Of a stretch of DNA of 14,327 nt, positions 1 to 13,100 are shown piece by piece. Source of the DNA: a virus; UHGV virus genome UHGV-0149611, one strand, 5' to 3'. Made by a program: the position numbers and the translations under genes. How positions within the stretch are numbered: position 1 is the first letter of the stretch; each line of letters begins with the position of its first letter. The notes beneath the pieces were generated by a model. That model ran no database searches, had not been told where the DNA came from, and was given only the letters and a program-made list of their open reading frames with translations.

Positions 1-74
1 CTGTAAATTGTCAATCAACGGGGAGGGAATGACCTTCCCCACTAAATAAAACCCTTAAACTAGGAGATTCAAAA
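1..74 (+). repeat. Intergenic cassette copy 1 (stop codon TAA 4-6, hairpin 20-40, CACTAAATAAA, GGAG, ATG at 75); possibly truncated at window edge
   Basis: Near-identical to 1162-1233 and similar to 568-636 and 1492-1563; 8-bp stem GGGGAGGG/CCTTCCCC with 5-nt loop; GGAG lies 9 nt before the ATG. Confidence 0.8.
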
Positions 75-416
75 ATGGCTTATGTAACCGTAATTACCGA
101 TAAAGCTGGCGCATCTTGGTCAACTCAAGTAAGTGATAAGATGTCACCTATGCAGTGCCTAAAATACTTTGAACAGTGGAACAAAGGCGAGGACACAAGC
201 CCCTTTCAAGTGATGCAGATTATCCATGTAGATAACGAAGGGAATAAAACGGTTTTAAATAGTGAATACTACGCAAGCCGTTTTGAAACGAGAAGTAAAA
301 CAATGAAGCTTTTACGTGAATCCGGTTATGCCCATATCGCCGCGTTAATCTGGGATGACCTGCTAAAAAACCAACGTATCAGCTATGTAAAGCCTGAAAA
401 AATATTCATCAGTTAA
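75..416 (+). CDS. hypothetical protein (113 aa)
   Basis: ORF with GGAG Shine-Dalgarno upstream, supplied by the conserved cassette; no recognisable motif. Confidence 0.65.
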   Translation: MAYVTVITDKAGASWSTQVSDKMSPMQCLKYFEQWNKGEDTSPFQVMQIIHVDNEGNKTVLNSEYYASRFETRSKTMKLLRESGYAHIAALIWDDLLKNQRISYVKPEKIFIS

Positions 417-448
417 TCAATAACTTACAAAAAACTTTTAAAAAAGTG

Positions 449-477
449 TTGACAATACCCCTTGACATTGGTAACTT
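449..477 (+). promoter_or_regulatory. sigma70-like promoter candidate: A-rich upstream, TTGACA (449-454), 17-bp spacer, TAACTT (472-477); a second TTGACA at 462-467
   Basis: Exact -35 hexamer preceded by TTTTAAAAAAGTG, the same context as the other TTGACA sites in the window; weak -10. Confidence 0.4.
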
Positions 478-567
478 TGTTCGAGGGGGTTTATCTAAAA
501 GGGATTCACTTAAAAGATTCTTTATAGATAAGCTCAAAAAATTACTTGCAATCAACTATCAAAACAA

Positions 568-636
568 GTAAATTACTAATCAACGGGAAGGCAATAACCT
601 CCCCACTAAATAAAGTCCTAAACTGGAGATTCTAAA
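568..636 (+). repeat. Intergenic cassette copy 2 (carries its own TAA at 569-571 although no ORF ends there)
   Basis: Aligns with copies 1, 3 and 4; hairpin arms GGGAAGG/CCTCCCC differ from copy 1 but pairing is largely retained. Confidence 0.8.
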
Positions 637-1167
637 ATGAACAAATTTCAAGCTATCAACTTCATTCGTTCAAATGCTGTAATGTCTAAGCCTGTAAAAG
701 ATACATACGAATTCCGTTGTAATGGGGTACATTTCGCAACAATCACCAAATCAGAAAACGGGGCTTATTACGTTCATCGTCGTAATGTTTCCACTGTTGT
801 AGTCTCTCACTTTATGCAAGCTGTAGCGGAATTATTACCGTTATTCTTAGAGATTTACTTAGATGAGTGTAAAAACGTTCACAACCACGTTAAAAACCTT
901 TTAAACGGTTATAAAATGGCTTATGAACGTTCTATCAAGTCCTTAAACAAGTTCTATAAAGCCCCTGAAAACTCTGTTGCTTCAGCCTATGGCGTAGGCG
1001 GTTGGACTGTTAGTCTCTTCGAAGTGGAAGAAATCGAGCTTTACGACCATCGACCTAACGGTTACTCTAAGACTCTCGGTGAAGGTTTAACGTTCAATAT
1101 CAAGAACTTAGAAAAAACTTTAAAAGATATTGAAAAAGATATTGACGAGACAATAAAAAGTCTGTAA
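637..1167 (+). CDS. hypothetical protein (176 aa)
   Basis: ORF directly after cassette, GGAG 8-9 nt upstream of ATG. Confidence 0.7.
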   Translation: MNKFQAINFIRSNAVMSKPVKDTYEFRCNGVHFATITKSENGAYYVHRRNVSTVVVSHFMQAVAELLPLFLEIYLDECKNVHNHVKNLLNGYKMAYERSIKSLNKFYKAPENSVASAYGVGGWTVSLFEVEEIELYDHRPNGYSKTLGEGLTFNIKNLEKTLKDIEKDIDETIKSL

Positions 1168-1233
1168 ATTGTCAATCAACGGGGAGGGAATGACCTTCCC
1201 CACTAAATAAAACCCTAAACTGGAGTTATCAAG
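1162..1233 (+). repeat. Intergenic cassette copy 3 (its TAA 1165-1167 is the stop codon of the 637-1167 ORF)
   Basis: Almost identical to copy 1. Confidence 0.85.
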
Positions 1234-1497
1234 ATGGAAAACGTAGAATTAACCACACTTTTACAAATTGCAACTGACAAAGAAGATGTAGCACTGTTTC
1301 ACCGTATCGAAAGCGATTTATTCAATGGTGAAATCATCAAAGAGTCTTACGAAGTTGTCGGATTCAAAGATGGTAAAGCGTTTGGCTTTTTTGACCTCGA
1401 CAAAGGCAACGCTGTCACAAAGTATGATGTCGTATCTTGTGAGATTCTTACAAAATACAACGAAAAAAGGCTTGCAACATACGCCAATATGCAGTAA
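1234..1497 (+). CDS. hypothetical protein (87 aa)
   Basis: ORF directly after cassette with GGAG upstream. Confidence 0.65.
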   Translation: MENVELTTLLQIATDKEDVALFHRIESDLFNGEIIKESYEVVGFKDGKAFGFFDLDKGNAVTKYDVVSCEILTKYNEKRLATYANMQ

Positions 1498-1563
1498 ATT
1501 ACTAATCAACGGGAGGCGATAACCTCCCCACTAAATAAAACCCTTAAACTAGGAGATTCAAAA
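1492..1563 (+). repeat. Intergenic cassette copy 4 (TAA 1495-1497 is the stop of the preceding ORF)
   Basis: Aligns with other copies; hairpin GGGAGG/CCTCCCC variant. Confidence 0.85.
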
Positions 1564-1812
1564 ATGGCAACTATCCGCGCTACTGTCAATGCCTATGGCT
1601 GTTATACTCTGGACGTTAAATTCGATATTGGTGGAACTGATGAGTGTTTTTCATTAGTGAAGACAGTTATCAAACAAGTTATTCCAGATTATAACCCTAC
1701 TGATGACTTCTGGAAAGATGCTGTAAAAGAGGCATTAAACGACGAGCATCACTATCATTACTGGGGTGACTTGATTGTTTCCCTGTACTACAATAAACAA
1801 GGTTACAACTAA
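1564..1812 (+). CDS. hypothetical protein (82 aa)
   Basis: ORF directly after cassette with GGAG upstream. Confidence 0.65.
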   Translation: MATIRATVNAYGCYTLDVKFDIGGTDECFSLVKTVIKQVIPDYNPTDDFWKDAVKEALNDEHHYHYWGDLIVSLYYNKQGYN

Positions 1813-1822
1813 TCGACGCAGC

Positions 1823-1876
1823 GGGGCTAAATAGCCCCAGATACCTCAACAGCCCCTATTTAAAGGGGCTTTTTTA
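1823..1876 (+). terminator. Rho-independent terminator: hairpin GGGGCT/AGCCCC (1823-1838), then AGCCCCT-ATTTAA-AGGGGCT (1851-1870) followed by TTTTTT (1871-1876)
   Basis: Perfect 7-bp GC-rich stem plus a 6-T tract immediately downstream of the last rightward small ORF. Confidence 0.8.
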
Positions 1877-3420
1877 CGTCTATTGAATCCTTATACAATC
1901 CCTTTCCAGAATCTTATCAGACCTTAAAAGCAATAACTCTATAGTCTACTCTATAACCTCTTATCAAATCAACTTAAATAAAAGCCAATAACCCCCAGAA
2001 AGGGGATGGCCCATTTAAACGCTCTATAAAGCTCTATAACAGCCTTATCAACCTAACTTAAGGGATTGCATTAACCAACCTTAAAAAGCTCTTTACAGGG
2101 CTTTATAGAGACTTAAAAGAATCTTATAAGGGTGTAAGCTTTATCATCTCGTTAGTATCTTGTGAATAACTAAAAAGGGCTATGAGATAGGAATCTATCG
2201 AATCCTATTGTTAGTGTCTTAAAAGTATGTTATAGGGGCTTAAAAGTTACTTCAAAGTTACGTAAAAGGGGTTATAAAGTTACGTAAATGCTAACCCCCT
2301 TAACATTATCTTAACAATCCCTACATAGTTATGCTTGTTAGAGACTTGTTAGCCACTTGTTAAATCTCTGTTAAGACCACGTAAAAGCCTTGTAAGAGTC
2401 TTTGACATAGCCTTAAAAGTTCCTGTAAAGCCCTATAAAGAGGTGTCTGTATAGTTGGGGTGTAACTACTAGGAAGAGACTTAAAAGGGGCTATACAGAG
2501 CTATAGAGAGCTTTTAAGAGGTATGTTTAAGGAATCACTAAGAAGGGAAAGGGAACGATAAGAAAGAGATAGTGACCATGTTAATAGCTTGTTAAAAAGA
2601 TTAAACACTTGTTAGAGACTTGTTAATTATCTTAACAAAATAACTCTTAAAAATTAACTTGTTAGCTCTTGTTAGTCATCTGTTAAGATTCTGTAAAGCC
2701 CATGTATCAACTGTTAAGAAACTGTTAAGCCCTTGTTAGTTCTGTTAAGAATCTGTTAAGACCTATGAAGAGTTGTTAAGAGCTTGAGAGAGTTGTTAAG
2801 AAATTGTTAAGGATATTTTAAAATTTTGCAAAGTACTTGTAAGGGAGTTGTTAAGGGCTACCAAGCAGATATACACCCTATTCAGATATTTTTGAGTTCC
2901 TTCAAAGACCCTAAAAAATGACTTGATAGTCCTATTTTATAAAAATTTTAAGATTCTGAATAATTACCTAGACAGTCTTTTAAAAATACAGGTAATAACA
3001 GGCTTATAAGATACCTTGTTAGTACCGTGTTAGACCTTGTGAGATAAGGTCTGTAAAGATATTCCTGTTAAGTTTGTTAAAACAGTCTATATAGAGGCTT
3101 AGTAATACCTAGTGAACACCTATAGAGAGTAACATAGCTGACATAGAGATTAAGAGGTGTATAGGAGCTTCTAAGAGGGTATAGAGAGATGGTTAAGGTG
3201 ATTGTATAGGTTGTTTAGAAGGCTTGTTAGAAGAGTGTTTAGAAGGGCTATTTAGAAGGGTTATACAGAGGGCTATTAAGACCACTAGATAGTTACTAAG
3301 ATACTATATAGTACTATATAACTATATAGAGAGTAAGATTAAGAAGGTTGTTAAGAAGGATAGATATTTTATTCACATATGATGGTGACCAAGAGGTTGG
3401 GACAACCGATAAAATTTTAT
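1877..3420. repeat. ~1.5-kb non-coding region of degenerate short words (CTTAAAAG, CTATAAAG, CTTGTTAG, CTGTTAAG, TTAGAAG, CTATATAG), partly phased at ~10-11 bp
   Basis: No ORF of 60 aa or more on either strand; stop-rich in all frames; YTGTTARG words starting at 2588, 2609, 2619, 2659, 2669, 2680, 2711, 2722, 2732, 2742, 2753, 2773, 2793, 2804. Confidence 0.8.
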
Positions 3421-3451
3421 AAAAATTAAAAAGCCCCCAATTAAGGAGGCT
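3421..3451 (-). terminator. Rho-independent terminator candidate at the end of the leftward gene block
   Basis: On the minus strand: AGCCTCC-TTAATT-GGGGGCT hairpin followed by TTTTTAATTTTT, just downstream of the stop at 3463. Confidence 0.6.
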
Positions 3452-3462
3452 CTTAAGATATT

Positions 3463-4086
3463 TTAAATCAGTGTTTCCAGAACTGTCTTCAGTGATGACT
3501 TGGTTGTCTGATAAAAATGAGTAAATCCATTGTTGTTATCGAATATCTGCATCATGATATCATCACCCTTGATTGGGTAAACTCGGATATCATAGTGAAA
3601 ACCATTAAAGACACAAGAGCCATTACAGAATGCACTAAAGTCATCAACTGAGATATACTCTTCATGTCCTGTGATTTTTATACAAACGCCTTTACTCGGT
3701 CTCTTAGGGTTGATATCTTCCATCACAGACATACTCTGTCCACCAAGAGATACCATAGTGACCACTTTACGGTTCTTCTGTTTAAAGTACATCTTAACTT
3801 TCTGCAAAGTGTCTTCATAGAATGGATAAGACTTCTCTACAAAGATTCCTTCAAGTGGCTCTTTACCATTTTCAACTTCTCGGTTATGCCGTACTGCAAA
3901 GATAATTTGTTCGAACCAGTCAAGATTTTCTTCGGAGAGTGCTTCCCGAACATCCTTCCAGTCAAGTACTAAGTAGTTACCTTCAACTTCTTTTAAGTTA
4001 TCTTTTTCCATATCTATCACACCATTATCGTAAAACTTGATATTCTGGTACTGCGAATTTATTACTATTATTCTTGATGAGGTCAT
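3463..4086 (-). CDS. hypothetical protein (207 aa); start uncertain
   Basis: Long ORF; first ATG overlaps the upstream gene by 62 nt and has a poorly spaced SD; an internal ATG near 4011 is an alternative. Confidence 0.55.
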   Translation of the reverse strand: MTSSRIIVINSQYQNIKFYDNGVIDMEKDNLKEVEGNYLVLDWKDVREALSEENLDWFEQIIFAVRHNREVENGKEPLEGIFVEKSYPFYEDTLQKVKMYFKQKNRKVVTMVSLGGQSMSVMEDINPKRPSKGVCIKITGHEEYISVDDFSAFCNGSCVFNGFHYDIRVYPIKGDDIMMQIFDNNNGFTHFYQTTKSSLKTVLETLI

Positions 4087-8115: not shown

Positions 8116-8580
8116 TTACTTTGGGTATACACTGTCAAGATAAATGTCAGCTTCCATTCTACGTCTGTTTTTCAGTCCGTTTGAAGTGACCTTCTGACCT
8201 TTGACTGTAACCTTGTTCCACCACTGCATAGCTTCTGCACAACCTACCTTATTACCAGCATTGTGGCGCTTGATAAATGTAGAATCCTGCATAGCTGTGA
8301 TACCGATGTTGTATGTTTCACTTACAAGTGCATCGAACTCATTCTGAGAAGTTGGAACCTTGATGGCTTTGTTCACTGCTACAACGAACTTTTCAACATC
8401 TGCGAGAAGATACTGTTCAGCTTGTTCAGCAGTAATTTTCATACCCATCTTAACAGGTTTTCCGTCAATACGGATTGTCCCATACCCAATTGTTGGGATT
8501 CCGGCAGAGTCTTCGTAAGCCTCTAACTTCAGACCTTCGAAGAACTTAATAGCATCTAAACCTTTTCTTGAGAGTTGCAT
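8116..8580 (-). CDS. lysozyme / endolysin, glycoside hydrolase family 24 (T4 e / P22 gp19 type)
   Basis: N-terminal catalytic signature EGLKLEAYEDSAGIPTIGYGT (Glu, then Asp 9 residues on, then Thr); overall resemblance to P22-type lysozyme including a C-terminal NRRR..E..L region. Confidence 0.85.
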   Translation of the reverse strand: MQLSRKGLDAIKFFEGLKLEAYEDSAGIPTIGYGTIRIDGKPVKMGMKITAEQAEQYLLADVEKFVVAVNKAIKVPTSQNEFDALVSETYNIGITAMQDSTFIKRHNAGNKVGCAEAMQWWNKVTVKGQKVTSNGLKNRRRMEADIYLDSVYPK

Positions 8581-9467
8581 TATGCCTCCCCTGCTGGATT
8601 AACTGTAACTGTTGCTGCATCTGAGGTAACACTTGTTCCACCCTCTCCAGATACAACACAAGTGTATGAACCAGCATCAGAAGGTGCTACTGACTGTTTT
8701 GTGTAAGTTGCAGAATTGGCACTAGGGATGTCCTCACCATCCTTCTTCCACTGATATCCAGTGGCGTTAGTTGCTAGAATGCTTAGAGTAAGTGTGCCAC
8801 CCTCATTGACTGTTTGACCTGTCGGTTGCTGAGTGATGACAGGAAGTGCATTCACAGTCACTGTTGCTGCATCTGAGGTAACACTTGTTCCACCCTCTCC
8901 AGATACAACACAAGTGTATGAACCAGCATCAGAAGGTGCTACTGACTGTTTTGTGTAAGTTGCAGAATTGGCACTAGGGATGTCCTCACCATCCTTCTTC
9001 CACTGATAACCTGTCGCACCTGTTGCCACAACATTCAGTGTTAAGGTCTCACCTTCAGTGATTTCTTGATTGGTTGGTTGCTGAGTAATTGCTGGTGACT
9101 TAATAGCATCCTTCAACTTAGCATTCAACATTGAGAACGGCTTAACTCTTGCCAACCATTCACAGTAAATTGTGTCAACATCTTTACCATTGATGATTGC
9201 ATACTGCAAATCCATGAAGAAATCAGCAGTTCTCATCTGTGCACCAACACTGTAAAGCAATTCATCACTAAATGGAACTTTGTAGTCTGGTTTGTAGTCA
9301 AACTTCTCAACTTCTGCAATATCAGCTTCAGGCCAATATGAACTATAGGTAAGTGGTAAAATAGCCTCTTGATATGTTCTAAAATCATACCTCTTACCAG
9401 CCTTTACATTTGCAATGAAACCCTTCACAAACTCTTTGAAGTCTGGGTAAGTCTTTGCTTTAATCAT
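8580..9467 (-). CDS. protein with ~120-aa N-terminal domain of unknown function plus two tandem Ig-like (I-set type) domains (295 aa)
   Basis: Two ~84-aa repeats of ITQQPT..EG.TLTL..ATGATGYQWKKDGEDIPSANSATYTKQSVAPSDAGSYTCVVSGEGGTSVTSDAATVTV, an Ig-fold pattern (W, Y.C, alternating beta residues); N-terminal domain paralogous to 9464-9835. Confidence 0.75.
   Translation of the reverse strand: MIKAKTYPDFKEFVKGFIANVKAGKRYDFRTYQEAILPLTYSSYWPEADIAEVEKFDYKPDYKVPFSDELLYSVGAQMRTADFFMDLQYAIINGKDVDTIYCEWLARVKPFSMLNAKLKDAIKSPAITQQPTNQEITEGETLTLNVVATGATGYQWKKDGEDIPSANSATYTKQSVAPSDAGSYTCVVSGEGGTSVTSDAATVTVNALPVITQQPTGQTVNEGGTLTLSILATNATGYQWKKDGEDIPSANSATYTKQSVAPSDAGSYTCVVSGEGGTSVTSDAATVTVNPAGEA
8608..9008. 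repeat. Tandem direct repeat, 252-bp period; 8608-8756 is 100% identical to 8860-9008, the rest of each unit diverged
   Basis: Direct comparison of the two segments; they encode the two Ig-like domains. Confidence 0.9.
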
Positions 9468-10930: not shown

Positions 10931-10979
10931 TTAAAAAAGTTGTTGACAAAGTACTTGACAAGGTGTAGGCTTATAAATA
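10931..10979 (+). promoter_or_regulatory. Rightward control region: A-rich upstream, tandem TTGACA boxes (10943-10948, 10955-10960), TATAAATA (10972-10979)
   Basis: Same AAAAAGTTGTTGACA context as other promoter candidates; spacing to TATAAAT is not canonical for sigma70 (11 or 23 bp). Confidence 0.3.
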
Positions 10980-11092
10980 CTTAGAAGATAACTTAAAAGG
11001 TTCCTCTAAAAAGGCTATTTAAACAGATATCTTTCTGGATATCTATCTTTTATCTTAAAAGCCTTTTAAGAGGTCTTATAAGAGGCATACCA

Positions 11093-11476: not shown

Positions 11477-11506
11477 TTGACAGACTCTACAAAGTTGCTC
11501 TAAAGT
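11477..11506 (+). promoter_or_regulatory. sigma70-like promoter candidate: TTGACA (11477-11482), 18-bp spacer, TAAAGT; overlaps inverted repeat GACAGACT/AGTCTGTC
   Basis: Exact -35 with TTTTAAAAGGTG upstream; 8-bp inverted repeat spans the spacer and -10. Confidence 0.4.
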
Positions 11507-12979: not shown

Positions 12980-13008
12980 TTGACAATGTGTTTGATGCCC
13001 TTTAATAT
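12980..13008 (+). promoter_or_regulatory. sigma70 promoter: TTGACA (12980-12985), 17-bp spacer, TAATAT (13003-13008)
   Basis: Near-consensus hexamers with canonical spacing and TTTTAAAAAGGGTA upstream; about 120 nt upstream of the first tRNA. Confidence 0.55.
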
Positions 13009-13070: not shown

Positions 13071-13100
13071 TTGACAACCACTAAAAAATAATGTTAAAGT
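13071..13100 (+). promoter_or_regulatory. sigma70-like promoter candidate: TTGACA (13071-13076), 18-bp spacer, TAAAGT (13095-13100)
   Basis: Same architecture as 11477-11506; 27 nt upstream of tRNA-Pro. Confidence 0.45.

What the first reader, a model, noticed from the sequence alone, without database searches (positions are those of the whole stretch)
1..1563. Four copies of a portable stop / hairpin / SD / start cassette framing small ORFs
Each of the four rightward small ORFs is preceded by the same ~70-bp unit: TAA, AATTGTCAATCAAC, a G-rich hairpin, CACTAAATAAA, then GGAG and ATG. The hairpin arms vary between copies while keeping pairing. Copy 2 carries the TAA although no ORF ends there, so the stop is part of the element. 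This is what a mobile regulatory cassette would look like, one that lets small ORFs be inserted or shuffled with their own translation signals. It resembles the promoter-early stem-loop cassettes described in T4-type phages, but I cannot confirm identity. CACTAAATAAA could be a phage-specific promoter element.
Basis: partly seen in the sequence, partly recalled or inferred. Interest (0 to 1): 0.65.

Follow-up and report, generated by a model that had tools for sequence, protein, structure and literature searches.

The report
Promoter–hairpin gene cassettes in Felix O1-like phage
The four repeats are the tail end of a tandem array of 8–15 self-contained "promoter + hairpin + ribosome-site" units that drive small accessory genes in Felix O1-like phages and act as recombination joints for swapping those genes. 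They are the same kind of element as the PeSL cassettes of T4-type phages, seen here in another phage subfamily.

Summary
Four ~75-nt repeats end at the ATGs at 75, 637, 1234 and 1564. The core motifs occur 4 times against 0.03–0.14 expected by chance.

The window is a Felixounavirus (Felix O1-like myovirus). The "TAA" is the start of a sigma70 -10 hexamer, TAAATT. A TTGACA-like -35 lies exactly 17 bp upstream, inside the end of the preceding ORF. Across 25 different upstream contexts the match to TTGACA is 4.4/6 at spacer 17 and about 1.4/6 at every other offset.

Each unit is therefore promoter, G-run/C-run hairpin (10 nt after the -10, about +4 of the transcript), A-rich leader, GGAG, 8 nt, ATG. 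Relatives carry 8–15 such units in one region only, next to the genome's terminal repeat.

Single cassette+ORF modules are present or absent between relatives. ORF 1234–1497 is found in roughly half of them. Junction cassettes are chimeric, and one ORF sits at different junctions in different genomes.

This matches the defining architecture of PeSLs from T4-type phages, without sequence homology and in another subfamily (Ounavirinae). CACTAAATAAA is not a separate promoter. Promoter activity, hairpin function and mini-circle formation remain untested. Verdict: a new member of a known kind, of moderate interest.

The parts
1..77 (+). Cassette copy 1 (type A), cut at the window start. -10 TAAATT 4-9; ATCAAC 14-19 (predicted start at about A17); hairpin 20-40 (GGGGAGGG 20-27, loop 28-32, CCTTCCCC 33-40); leader ACTAAATAAA 41-50; SD GGAG 63-66; ATG 75-77.
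   Evidence: In relatives the -35 is TAGACA, 17 bp upstream, which is off-window here.
75..416 (+). Small ORF, 113 aa (homolog of Felix O1 ORF21; phrog_4318, unknown function).
   Evidence: Felix O1 ORF21 transcript is maximal at 5 min (PMC3185647 Table 3).
417..565 (+). Highly conserved non-coding spacer holding an extra sigma70-like promoter (UP-like AAAAAACTTTTAAAAAAG; -35 TTGACA 449-454; 17 bp; -10 TAACTT 472-477). A hairpin, CCCCTTGA 458-465 / TCGAGGGG 481-488, spans the spacer and -10. A CTTAAAAG box lies at 509-516.
   Evidence: (91-100% nt identity, even where the flanking ORFs are about 70%).
546..639 (+). Cassette copy 2 (type A). -35 TTGCAA 546-551; 17-bp spacer; -10 TAAATT 569-574; ATCAAC 579-584; hairpin 585-604 (one mismatch); leader ACTAAATAAA 605-614; GGAG 625-628; ATG 637-639.
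637..1167 (+). ORF, 176 aa (homolog of Felix O1 ORF22; phrog_4725). Its last codons encode the A-rich tract and the -35 of the next cassette, and its stop TAA is the first half of that cassette's -10.
   Evidence: Felix O1 ORF22 transcript is maximal at 5 min.
1142..1236 (+). Cassette copy 3 (type A). -35 TTGACG 1142-1147; 17 bp; -10 TAAATT 1165-1170; ATCAAC 1175-1180; hairpin 1181-1201; leader 1202-1211; GGAG 1222-1225; ATG 1234-1236.
   Evidence: (listed by the promoter scan, 9/12).
1234..1497 (+). ORF, 87 aa (phrog_7022). This is a variable module: absent from Felix O1 and VpaE1, and present in 123 phage records against about 250 that carry the neighbouring ORF.
1472..1566 (+). Cassette copy 4 (type A). 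-35 TTGCAA 1472-1477; 17 bp; -10 TAAATT 1495-1500; ATCAAC 1505-1510; hairpin GGGAGG 1511-1516 / CCTCCC 1523-1528; leader 1530-1539; GGAG 1552-1555; ATG 1564-1566.
1564..1812 (+). Last ORF of the array, 82 aa (homolog of Felix O1 ORF23; phrog_4559).
   Evidence: Two allele classes that do not track the neighbouring ORFs.
1851..1877 (+). Canonical intrinsic terminator (AGCCCCT...AGGGGCT + TTTTTT) that closes the cassette array. It corresponds to Felix O1 t23.
   Evidence: PMC3185647 Table 2.

Best explanation
The four repeats are the last four units of a tandem array of PeSL-like early-gene expression cassettes at the right end of a Felix O1-like (Felixounavirus) genome. Relatives carry 8-15 units in one orientation, bracketed by two intrinsic terminators. 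The array ends about 0.5 kb before the terminal repeat.

Each unit has the following parts, in order:
- an A-rich UP-like tract and a TTGACA-like -35, usually inside the last codons of the preceding ORF;
- a 17-bp spacer;
- the -10 hexamer TAAATT, whose TAA often doubles as the upstream stop codon;
- a predicted start at the A of ATCAAC, 7-8 nt downstream;
- a G-run/C-run stem-loop beginning 10 nt after the -10, at about +4;
- an unstructured A-rich leader;
- GGAG, 8 nt, then ATG.

Inferred: host sigma70 RNA polymerase fires each unit immediately after infection, so every small accessory gene has its own promoter. The hairpin acts in + strand RNA. In the unit's own transcript it is a 5'-terminal stem-loop, which would shield the mRNA from 5'-end-dependent decay. 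In read-through transcripts it lies 13 nt after the upstream stop, where it would attenuate transcription or stabilise the 3' end, so that modules are insulated from each other.

Shown by comparison: the 75-105 nt of shared sequence serve as homology for recombination. That recombination deletes, inserts, relocates and re-promotes single ORF modules without breaking expression.
For: Identity of the phage.

Promoter:
- In 25 upstream-context clusters (<70% identical) the mean match to TTGACA is 4.44/6 at a spacer of 17, against 0.6-2.5 at every other spacer from 8 to 29. 21 of 25 have >=4/6 at exactly 17 bp.
- The -35 variants (TTGACA, TTGACT, TTGACG, TTGCAA, TTGATT, TAGACA, TTTACA) sit in otherwise unrelated 3' ends of different ORFs.
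- A+T content upstream of the -35 is 64-95%.
- Felix O1 ORFs 16, 20, 21 and 22 of this array peak at 5 min.

Hairpin:
- All 33 sequence variants from 111 type A cassettes fold (-6 to -15.6 kcal/mol). Most are more stable in sense than in antisense because of G.U pairs.
- The distance from the -10 to the hairpin is 10 nt in 113 of 113 cassettes.
- Other genera keep a hairpin with different, compensated arms: GGGGC/GCCCC, GGGA/TCCC, GGTGTTT/AAGCACC, GGGGTTAT/ATAACCCC, and GGGGG-TTAAAAT-CCCCC.

Translation signals: the GGAG-to-ATG spacing is 8 nt in 152 of 204 cassettes.

Confinement to one region: there are no cassette hits in the other halves of the VpaE1 and Felix O1 genomes.

Shuffling:
- Gene-order matrix over 22 loci shows single modules present or absent.
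- ORF 1234-1497 occurs in 123 records, against about 250 for its neighbour.
- Junctions lacking it carry chimeric cassettes with at least three different crossover positions.
- The same ORF family follows a type A cassette in one genome and type B in another.
- The fam13 ORF module (an 82-aa ORF family of the gene-order matrix, absent from this window) sits before or after the fam10 module (a neighbouring 67-aa family) in different genomes.
- A 7-codon deletion scar lies between two back-to-back cassettes.
- Identity classes are discordant across cassette boundaries.

The architecture equals the published PeSL definition.
Against: No transcript 5' or 3' ends, reporter data or half-life data exist for these phages in the literature I could search. 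Promoter use and start site are therefore inferred.

Individually the window's promoters match the consensus only 8-9 of 12. The generic scan flagged just one of them and found no more promoter-like sites than in shuffles.

The hairpins lack a U-tract, so termination is not the canonical intrinsic kind.

In type B cassettes the hairpin lies wholly upstream of the predicted start, so a 5'-protective role cannot be general.

Felix O1 ORFs 17, 19 and 23 of the array peaked at 25 min, not 5 min.

The hairpin arms are low-complexity G/C runs, so within-genus covariation is weak evidence. Conservation of spacing could simply reflect homogenisation of a young repeat.
Confidence: 0.8

Rival explanations
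1. RNA punctuation only. The array is transcribed as one polycistronic early RNA from the first strong promoter. The hairpin plus the AU-rich single strand ACUAAAUAAA is an endonuclease (RNase E-type) processing site. Cleavage would leave the upstream mRNA with a protective 3' hairpin and release the downstream cistron. On this reading the -35/-10 matches are incidental.
For: The hairpin lies 13-15 nt after the upstream stop in both cassette types, and in type B it lies upstream of the predicted start. It is followed by a conserved A/U-rich unpaired stretch. There is no U-tract. The first cassette of the array has the best promoter and UP element. G.U pairs point to sense-strand RNA.
Against: This cannot explain a TTGACA-like hexamer at exactly 17 bp in 21 of 25 unrelated upstream contexts, including inside coding sequence. 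It also cannot explain the conserved TAnnnT hexamers in type B, Suspvirus and Kolesnikvirus cassettes whose sequences otherwise differ. Processing and promoters are not mutually exclusive.
Confidence: 0.1
2. The G-run/C-run hairpin acts at the DNA level. It would be an operator or a structure-specific target for a phage protein (regulator, nuclease or recombinase) that shuts off the array or catalyses cassette exchange. It would not be an RNA element.
For: The hairpin is kept in four genera while its position relative to the promoter changes: downstream of the -10, spanning the spacer and -10, or with the -10 in the loop. That fits something that overlaps and occludes the promoter. Arbiol et al. 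raised the same idea for PeSLs. The phage encodes endonuclease VII and several HNH endonucleases.
Against: G.T wobble positions make the structure weaker on the complementary strand (antisense z about -1), which is unexpected for a cruciform or duplex palindrome site. Arm sequences differ widely between cassettes within a single genome, which fits poorly with one sequence-specific binder. Crossovers fall at several positions along the cassette, not at one site.
Confidence: 0.1
3. CACTAAATAAA is the core of a phage-specific (middle or late, T4-late-like TATAAATA) promoter. The cassette would then be transcribed by modified RNA polymerase rather than by sigma70 early promoters.
For: The motif resembles TATAAATA and is invariant in the four window copies. 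Some array ORFs peaked at 25 min in Felix O1.
Against: ACTAAATAAA occurs only inside type A cassettes, and nowhere upstream of replication, structural or lysis genes in two complete genomes. It varies to ACTAAGTAAA, ACTAACTAAC and CAACAATCC in relatives. A transcript starting after it would leave only about 10-15 nt before the SD. The Felix O1 paper found no polymerase-modifying or sigma-like genes.
Confidence: 0.03
4. The repeats are a neutral product of local tandem duplication, or a selfish MITE-like repeat, with no regulatory role.
For: The repeats are confined to one region and one orientation.
Against: The ORFs between the repeats belong to 19 mutually unrelated families, so genes were not duplicated. 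Every copy is positioned with GGAG 7-10 nt before an ATG. The architecture is retained across Felixounavirus, Mooglevirus, Suspvirus and Kolesnikvirus with diverged sequence. There are no terminal inverted repeats or target duplications.
Confidence: 0.03

Closest known systems
PeSLs (promoter-early stem-loops) of T4-type phages RB49/phi1, T4/PST and KVP40/nt-1 (Arbiol et al. 2010, PMC2839356; Comeau et al. 2014, PMC4122927)
   Same: Both have the upstream stop codon in an A/T-rich stretch, a sigma70-like -35, N17 and a -10. The published consensi TTGACA..TATAAT, TTTACW..TAYWAT and TTGYVH..TAWWAT compare with TTGMMR..TAAATT and TTTACA..TAAAGT here. Both have a G(n)-loop-C(n) stem-loop at a variable position relative to the promoter, and an SD plus ATG at the 3' end. 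Both are clustered in a hyperplastic region of small ORFans. In both, indels between close relatives are bounded by cassettes with a chimeric cassette left behind.
   Different: The host lineage is different (Ounavirinae, about 87 kb, versus Straboviridae/T4-like, 160-250 kb). There is no detectable sequence homology: a blastn search with the cassette finds only Ounavirinae. There is one contiguous array next to the terminal repeat, rather than several HPRs. In the dominant type the hairpin lies downstream of the predicted start (about +4), so it is in the cassette's own transcript; the published subclass 'downstream of -10' is described as lying before the start site. The -35 and -10 are routinely embedded in the upstream coding sequence and stop codon. 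Promoter, terminator and mini-circle activities are untested here.
Morons of lambdoid phages (promoter-gene-terminator units; from my own knowledge, also discussed in PMC2839356)
   Same: Both are autonomous expression modules for accessory genes, inserted between resident genes.
   Different: Morons are individually unrelated insertions. They lack a shared repeated linker, so they do not provide homology for shuffling.
5'-terminal stem-loop mRNA stabilisers such as the ompA 5' UTR (Emory, Bouvet and Belasco 1992; from my own knowledge)
   Same: Both are stable hairpins with no more than about 3 unpaired nt at the predicted 5' end, followed by a single-stranded leader and SD.
   Different: The start site and any effect on half-life are unmeasured here. 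Type B cassettes do not place the hairpin in their own transcript.
Direct repeats already recorded in Felix O1 and wV8 (Whichard et al. 2010, PMC3185647; GenBank EU877232 features DR_1 to DR_9)
   Same: These are the same sequences. The 39-bp repeat TTGACACTGGTTTTTAGATAGATTAAATTACACATCAAC is the -35 to start-site part of type A. The 57-bp repeat is type B.
   Different: They were listed only as repeats. They were not interpreted as promoters, cassettes or recombination joints, and the Felix O1 paper's promoter list does not include them.

Membership tests
PeSL (promoter-early stem-loop) cassettes | Sigma70-like -35 and -10 boxes at about 17-bp spacing, with an A/T-rich region upstream | tested here: met
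   match to TTGACA is 4.44/6 at spacer 17 against about 1.4 elsewhere; 21 of 25 contexts have >=4/6. The -10 is TAAATT, TAATAT, TAGTAT or TAAAGT. Upstream A+T is 64-95%.
PeSL (promoter-early stem-loop) cassettes | Stable stem-loop, typically G(n)...C(n), adjacent to or overlapping the promoter | tested here: met
   all 33 variants fold. Type A lies 10 nt after the -10. Type B and the 449-488 element span the spacer and -10. The Erwinia phage has the -10 in the loop.
PeSL (promoter-early stem-loop) cassettes | Bounded by the upstream gene's stop codon and by the SD plus start codon of the downstream gene | tested here: met
   The stop lies in the -10 (TAAATT), in the -35 (TAGACA, TTGATT) or just upstream. 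GGAG is 7-10 nt before the ATG in 204 of 204 cassettes.
PeSL (promoter-early stem-loop) cassettes | Concentrated in a hyperplastic region of small, non-essential ORFans | tested here: met
   hits fall only in the 5-7 kb array, with none in the other genome halves; all four window ORFs match PHROGs of unknown function and no Pfam family. Non-essentiality was not tested.
PeSL (promoter-early stem-loop) cassettes | Indels or replacements between close relatives are flanked by cassettes, leaving a chimeric cassette | tested here: met
PeSL (promoter-early stem-loop) cassettes | Demonstrated promoter activity and stem-loop terminator/attenuator activity (lacZ fusions) | not testable with these tools
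   No reporter or transcript-end data were found for Ounavirinae. The only data are coarse RT-PCR timing.
PeSL (promoter-early stem-loop) cassettes | Formation of cassette+ORF mini-circles by recombination between flanking cassettes | not testable with these tools
   This needs inverse PCR or long reads from infected cells or virions.
PeSL (promoter-early stem-loop) cassettes | Occurrence in T4-like myoviruses, or sequence relatedness to their PeSLs | tested here: not met
   The window is Felixounavirus. A blastn search with the cassette finds 246 records, all Ounavirinae. It is the same kind of element, not a homologous family.
Rho-independent (intrinsic) terminator | GC-rich hairpin immediately followed by a U-tract | tested here: not met
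   no cassette hairpin is listed. The tails are ACTAAATAAA (type A) or AGATAAAGAG (type B). Only 1851-1877, after the last ORF, qualifies.
Phage-specific (T4-late-like) promoter at CACTAAATAAA | Motif recurs upstream of co-regulated genes across the genome | tested here: not met
   ACTAAATAAA is found only inside type A cassettes in the VpaE1 and Felix O1 genomes.
Known RNA families (Rfam 15) | Match to a curated covariance model | tested here: not met
   no match with E<=1 in window 1-3500.

The most novel reading that the evidence does not exclude
The array is an integron-like gene-capture platform of a virulent phage that works without an integrase. The conserved G-run/C-run hairpin would be a specific target for a phage structure-specific nuclease or recombination protein, rather than passive homology. 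Cassette+ORF units would then be actively excised as mini-circles and re-inserted at other cassettes. This would explain why the same ORF (fam13, an 82-aa ORF family of the matrix) is found at different junctions, and why four genera keep a hairpin while its sequence and position drift.
Probability: 0.12. Interest if true: 0.7.

Novelty: new member of a known kind. Interest (0 to 1): 0.4.

Why it matters
This extends PeSL-type promoter/stem-loop linkers beyond the T4-like phages, the only group where they have been described. They appear in a second, unrelated group of virulent myoviruses (all four Ounavirinae genera examined).

It suggests convergent use of "promoter + hairpin + RBS" linkers as a general way for lytic phages to hold and exchange accessory early genes, which are likely host-takeover or anti-defence functions.

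On the practical side:
- It gives the missing early promoters of Felix O1-like phages. The Felix O1 paper could not explain early transcription of this region.
- It explains why assemblies of these therapeutic or biocontrol phages often break here.
- It marks natural, self-expressing insertion sites for engineering.

Tried and rejected
- An exact-motif scan of IMG/VR with CCCCACTAAATAAA returned mostly single chance hits. Only the ~87-90 kb Felix-like contigs had multiple copies, so it was not useful beyond that.
- A MAFFT alignment of the 33 hairpin variants puts the sliding G/C-run arms out of register. Column-wise covariation counting (count of structure pairs or a covariance model) was therefore not attempted. 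Per-variant folding and between-genus comparison were used instead.
- The generic promoter scan is uninformative by itself: 5 sites against 6.2 expected.
- The 41-aa ORF 446-571 was checked against all array proteins and has no meaningful similarity, so I treat it as non-coding.
- T4 MotA-box reading of type B (GCTTTACA resembles TGCTTtA, from memory; PmSLs): rejected. The box would lie 19 nt from the -10 instead of about 12. TTTACA-N17-TAAAGT fits sigma70, and no MotA/AsiA-like genes are reported.
- Literature searches for TSS or RNA-seq data on Felix O1-like phages found nothing usable. The wV8 paper text does not mention the repeats. The PhageMaP paper on the Felixounavirus Bas63 gave no per-gene data for this region in the text retrieved.
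- Rfam: no hits.
Full report
**What the window is.** Megablast places the whole window in Felixounavirus (Felix O1-like myoviruses; 299 records, 83 covering >=80% of the query). The annotated relatives VpaE1 and Felix O1 show the same gene order. The order is: small rightward ORFs, about 1.6 kb of non-coding DNA, a leftward block (endolysin, tail protein), then rightward genes and a tRNA cluster. An IMG/VR contig (L126) is 100% identical over every segment tested.

**Checking the observation.** The four repeats are real and far above chance. CCCCACTAAATAAA occurs 4 times against 0.14 expected, and TAAATTRYYAATCAACGGG 4 times against 0.03. The four copies align at 83% column identity, and each ends at the ATG of an ORF. 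The leaders fold into a 5' hairpin with z-scores of -3.0 to -3.5 for copies 1, 3 and 4, and -1.45 for copy 2, whose stem has a mismatch. The reverse complements are unremarkable (z about -1).

In relatives the unit clearly extends upstream. For example, in VpaE1: aaaaattttcTTGACA-ctggtttttatgtaggt-TAAATTacacATCAACGGGG. The "TAA" is therefore the start of a -10 hexamer, TAAATT.

In the window the -35 hexamers are:
- TTGCAA at 546-551;
- TTGACG at 1142-1147;
- TTGCAA at 1472-1477.

Each lies exactly 17 bp before TAAATT, and each is inside or just after the end of the preceding ORF. The -35 of copy 1 is off-window (TAGACA in relatives).

I collected 204 cassettes from 22 loci: the window, VpaE1, Felix O1 and 20 IMG/VR contigs. 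I clustered their upstream 50 nt into 25 contexts less than 70% identical. The mean match to TTGACA is 4.44/6 at spacer 17 and 0.6-2.5 at all other spacers from 8 to 29. In 21 of 25 contexts the match is >=4/6 at exactly 17 bp. This positional signal sits in unrelated coding 3' ends. It is the main evidence for promoters. Individually the window's promoters match only 8-9 of 12, and the generic scan is not informative.

**Two cassette types.**
- Type A (all four window copies): -35, N17, TAAATT, N4, ATCAAC, G-run hairpin, ACTAAATAAA, leader.
- Type B: TTTACA, N17, TAAAGT, with a GGGGCTTA...TAAGCCCC hairpin spanning the spacer and -10 and ending at the predicted -1.

Both types share the 3' leader CCACTAAAT..CCT(T)AAAYT(A)GGAGATTCNAAAATG. 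These are the 39-bp and 57-bp "direct repeats" listed without interpretation in the Felix O1 paper. They are also the DR_1 to DR_9 features of the wV8 GenBank record.

**Anatomy and likely operation.**
- The -10 to hairpin distance is 10 nt in 113 of 113 type A cassettes.
- GGAG to ATG is 8 nt in 152 of 204 cassettes.
- With a start 7-8 nt after the -10 (C-1/A+1 of ATCAAC; inference from general sigma70 behaviour), the type A hairpin begins at about +4.
- All 33 hairpin sequence variants fold (-6 to -15.6 kcal/mol). Most are more stable in sense than antisense because of G.U pairs, which points to + strand RNA.

In type B the hairpin is upstream of the cassette's own start, so it can act only on read-through RNA or on DNA. 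No cassette hairpin has a U-tract. I therefore infer two things. The hairpin insulates modules by attenuating read-through or stabilising the 3' end. In type A it also gives a protective 5'-terminal stem-loop. These steps are inferred, not shown.

The only expression data are coarse. Felix O1 RT-PCR has ORFs 16, 20, 21 and 22 of the array maximal at 5 min, and ORFs 17, 19 and 23 at 25 min.

**Distribution.** Profile searches find cassettes only in one 5-7 kb region. There are none in the other halves of the VpaE1 and Felix O1 genomes. All are on one strand, with 8-15 per genome. The array starts after a strong terminator and ends at the terminator at 1851-1877. It lies about 0.5 kb before the ~0.6-kb direct terminal repeat annotated in UAB_69.

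A blastn search with the cassette hits 246 phage records, all Ounavirinae. Suspvirus phiSUSP1 and the Erwinia Kolesnikvirus vEam_S_24 have analogous arrays with diverged sequences. The promoter spacing is retained, and the hairpins are re-made with different arms, including one with the -10 in the loop. ACTAAATAAA occurs nowhere else in two complete genomes, so it is not a general phage promoter. Rfam has no match.

**Shuffling.**
- The ORFs between cassettes fall into 19 unrelated families. All four window ORFs match PHROGs of unknown function and have no Pfam hit.
- Gene order is conserved, but single cassette+ORF modules come and go.
- The window's ORF 1234-1497 is absent from Felix O1 and VpaE1. 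It is present in 123 records, against about 250 for its neighbour.
- Where it is absent, the single remaining cassette is a chimera of copy 3-like and copy 4-like parts. The crossovers fall at three or more positions: at the -10, between ATCAAC and the hairpin, and between the hairpin and the leader.
- The same ORF family follows type A in one genome and type B in another.
- The fam13 module (an 82-aa ORF family of the matrix, absent from this window) sits after the fam10 module (a neighbouring 67-aa family) in three genomes and before it in two.
- One genome has a 7-codon scar between two back-to-back cassettes.
- Nucleotide identity to the window jumps between allele classes across cassette boundaries. 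In Felix O1, for example, the 637-1167 ORF is 91.7% identical and the 1564-1812 ORF 69.5%.

**Comparison with the known.** The published PeSL definition covers the following:
- the stop codon lies in an A/T-rich stretch;
- sigma70 -35, N17, -10;
- a G(n)-loop-C(n) stem-loop at a variable position, in five subclasses;
- SD plus ATG;
- location in hyperplastic regions;
- indels bounded by cassettes.

Every feature I could test is met. Reporter activity and mini-circles are not testable here. Lineage and sequence homology are not shared. PeSL papers deal only with T4-like phages, and no paper in the library pairs "PeSLs" with "Felix". I therefore call this a new member of a known kind. Its "portable stop" and "CACTAAATAAA promoter" readings were not.

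Noticed in passing
window 417-565: The non-coding spacer is more conserved than the ORFs around it: 91-100% nt identity in all 20 loci where this segment is present, including Mooglevirus, where the ORFs are about 70%. It holds an extra UP/-35/-10 promoter (449-477) overlapped by a CCCC...GGGG hairpin (458-488), and a CTTAAAAG box (509-516). It may be a regulatory node or a small transcript. It gives ORF 637-1167 two tandem promoters.
   Followed up: partly
window 1813-3460: This 1.65-kb non-coding stretch lies between convergent gene blocks and is dense in short repeats. CTTAWAAG occurs 20 times in the window against 2.5 expected, clustered at 1923-2518 and 10992-11082. CTGTTAAG occurs 12 times against 0.9 expected, clustered at 2368-3072. 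By homology with UAB_69 it contains the ~0.6-kb direct terminal repeat, that is, the physical genome ends (about window 2290-2910). The repeats may be packaging, replication or regulator sites.
   Followed up: partly
all cassettes (window 53-66, 617-628, 1214-1225, 1541-1555): The leader exists as CCTAAACTGGAG or CCTTAAACTAGGAG. The extra T and extra A always co-occur (81 with both, 121 with neither, 0 with one). This adds a U-A pair to a tiny CC(U)/(A)GG helix that includes half of the SD. It could be a weak SD-sequestering stem, or just two tightly linked alleles.
   Followed up: partly
window 10943-10971, 11477-11506, 12980-13008, 13071-13100: Further sigma70-like promoters share the UP-like TTTTAAAAAAG(N)GTTGACA motif. 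They lie ahead of the DUF5681 gene, the 471-aa 'RNA-binding protein' gene (annotated DUF2828/vWFA in some relatives) and the tRNA cluster. The one at 12980 has its -35 inside the hairpin GGGTATTGACA...GATGCCC, which the Felix O1 paper lists as bidirectional terminator t42/t43. That is another promoter/stem-loop overlap.
   Followed up: partly
window 11, 625, 1523-1526 (relative to GenBank records JH2, EC6, FSL SP-010/SP-012): Several deposited assemblies start or end exactly inside a cassette. The repeats appear to break or arbitrarily open assemblies of these phages.
   Followed up: no
window 1816-1843: GCGGGGCTAAATAGCCCCAGATACC, just after the last ORF, resembles the 3' half of a type B cassette (..TAAGCCCCAGATAAAG). 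It has no promoter or ORF and looks like a cassette remnant ahead of the terminator.
   Followed up: no
window 8595-9089 (- strand ORF 8580-9467): A 243-nt tandem duplication (86% identity, 252-nt period) lies inside the 295-aa tail protein gene.
   Followed up: no
L134 4931-4954; L131 6245-6391: One relative has a 7-codon mini-ORF between two back-to-back cassettes, a deletion scar. Others carry an extra 48-aa hydrophobic ORF module ahead of the homolog of window ORF 75-416.
   Followed up: partly
VpaE1 record position 61941 (+), inside the minus-strand DNA polymerase fragment gene: An isolated TAAATT-N4-ATCAAC match with no hairpin lies outside the array. It is rarer than expected by chance for a 12-base motif.
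   Followed up: no
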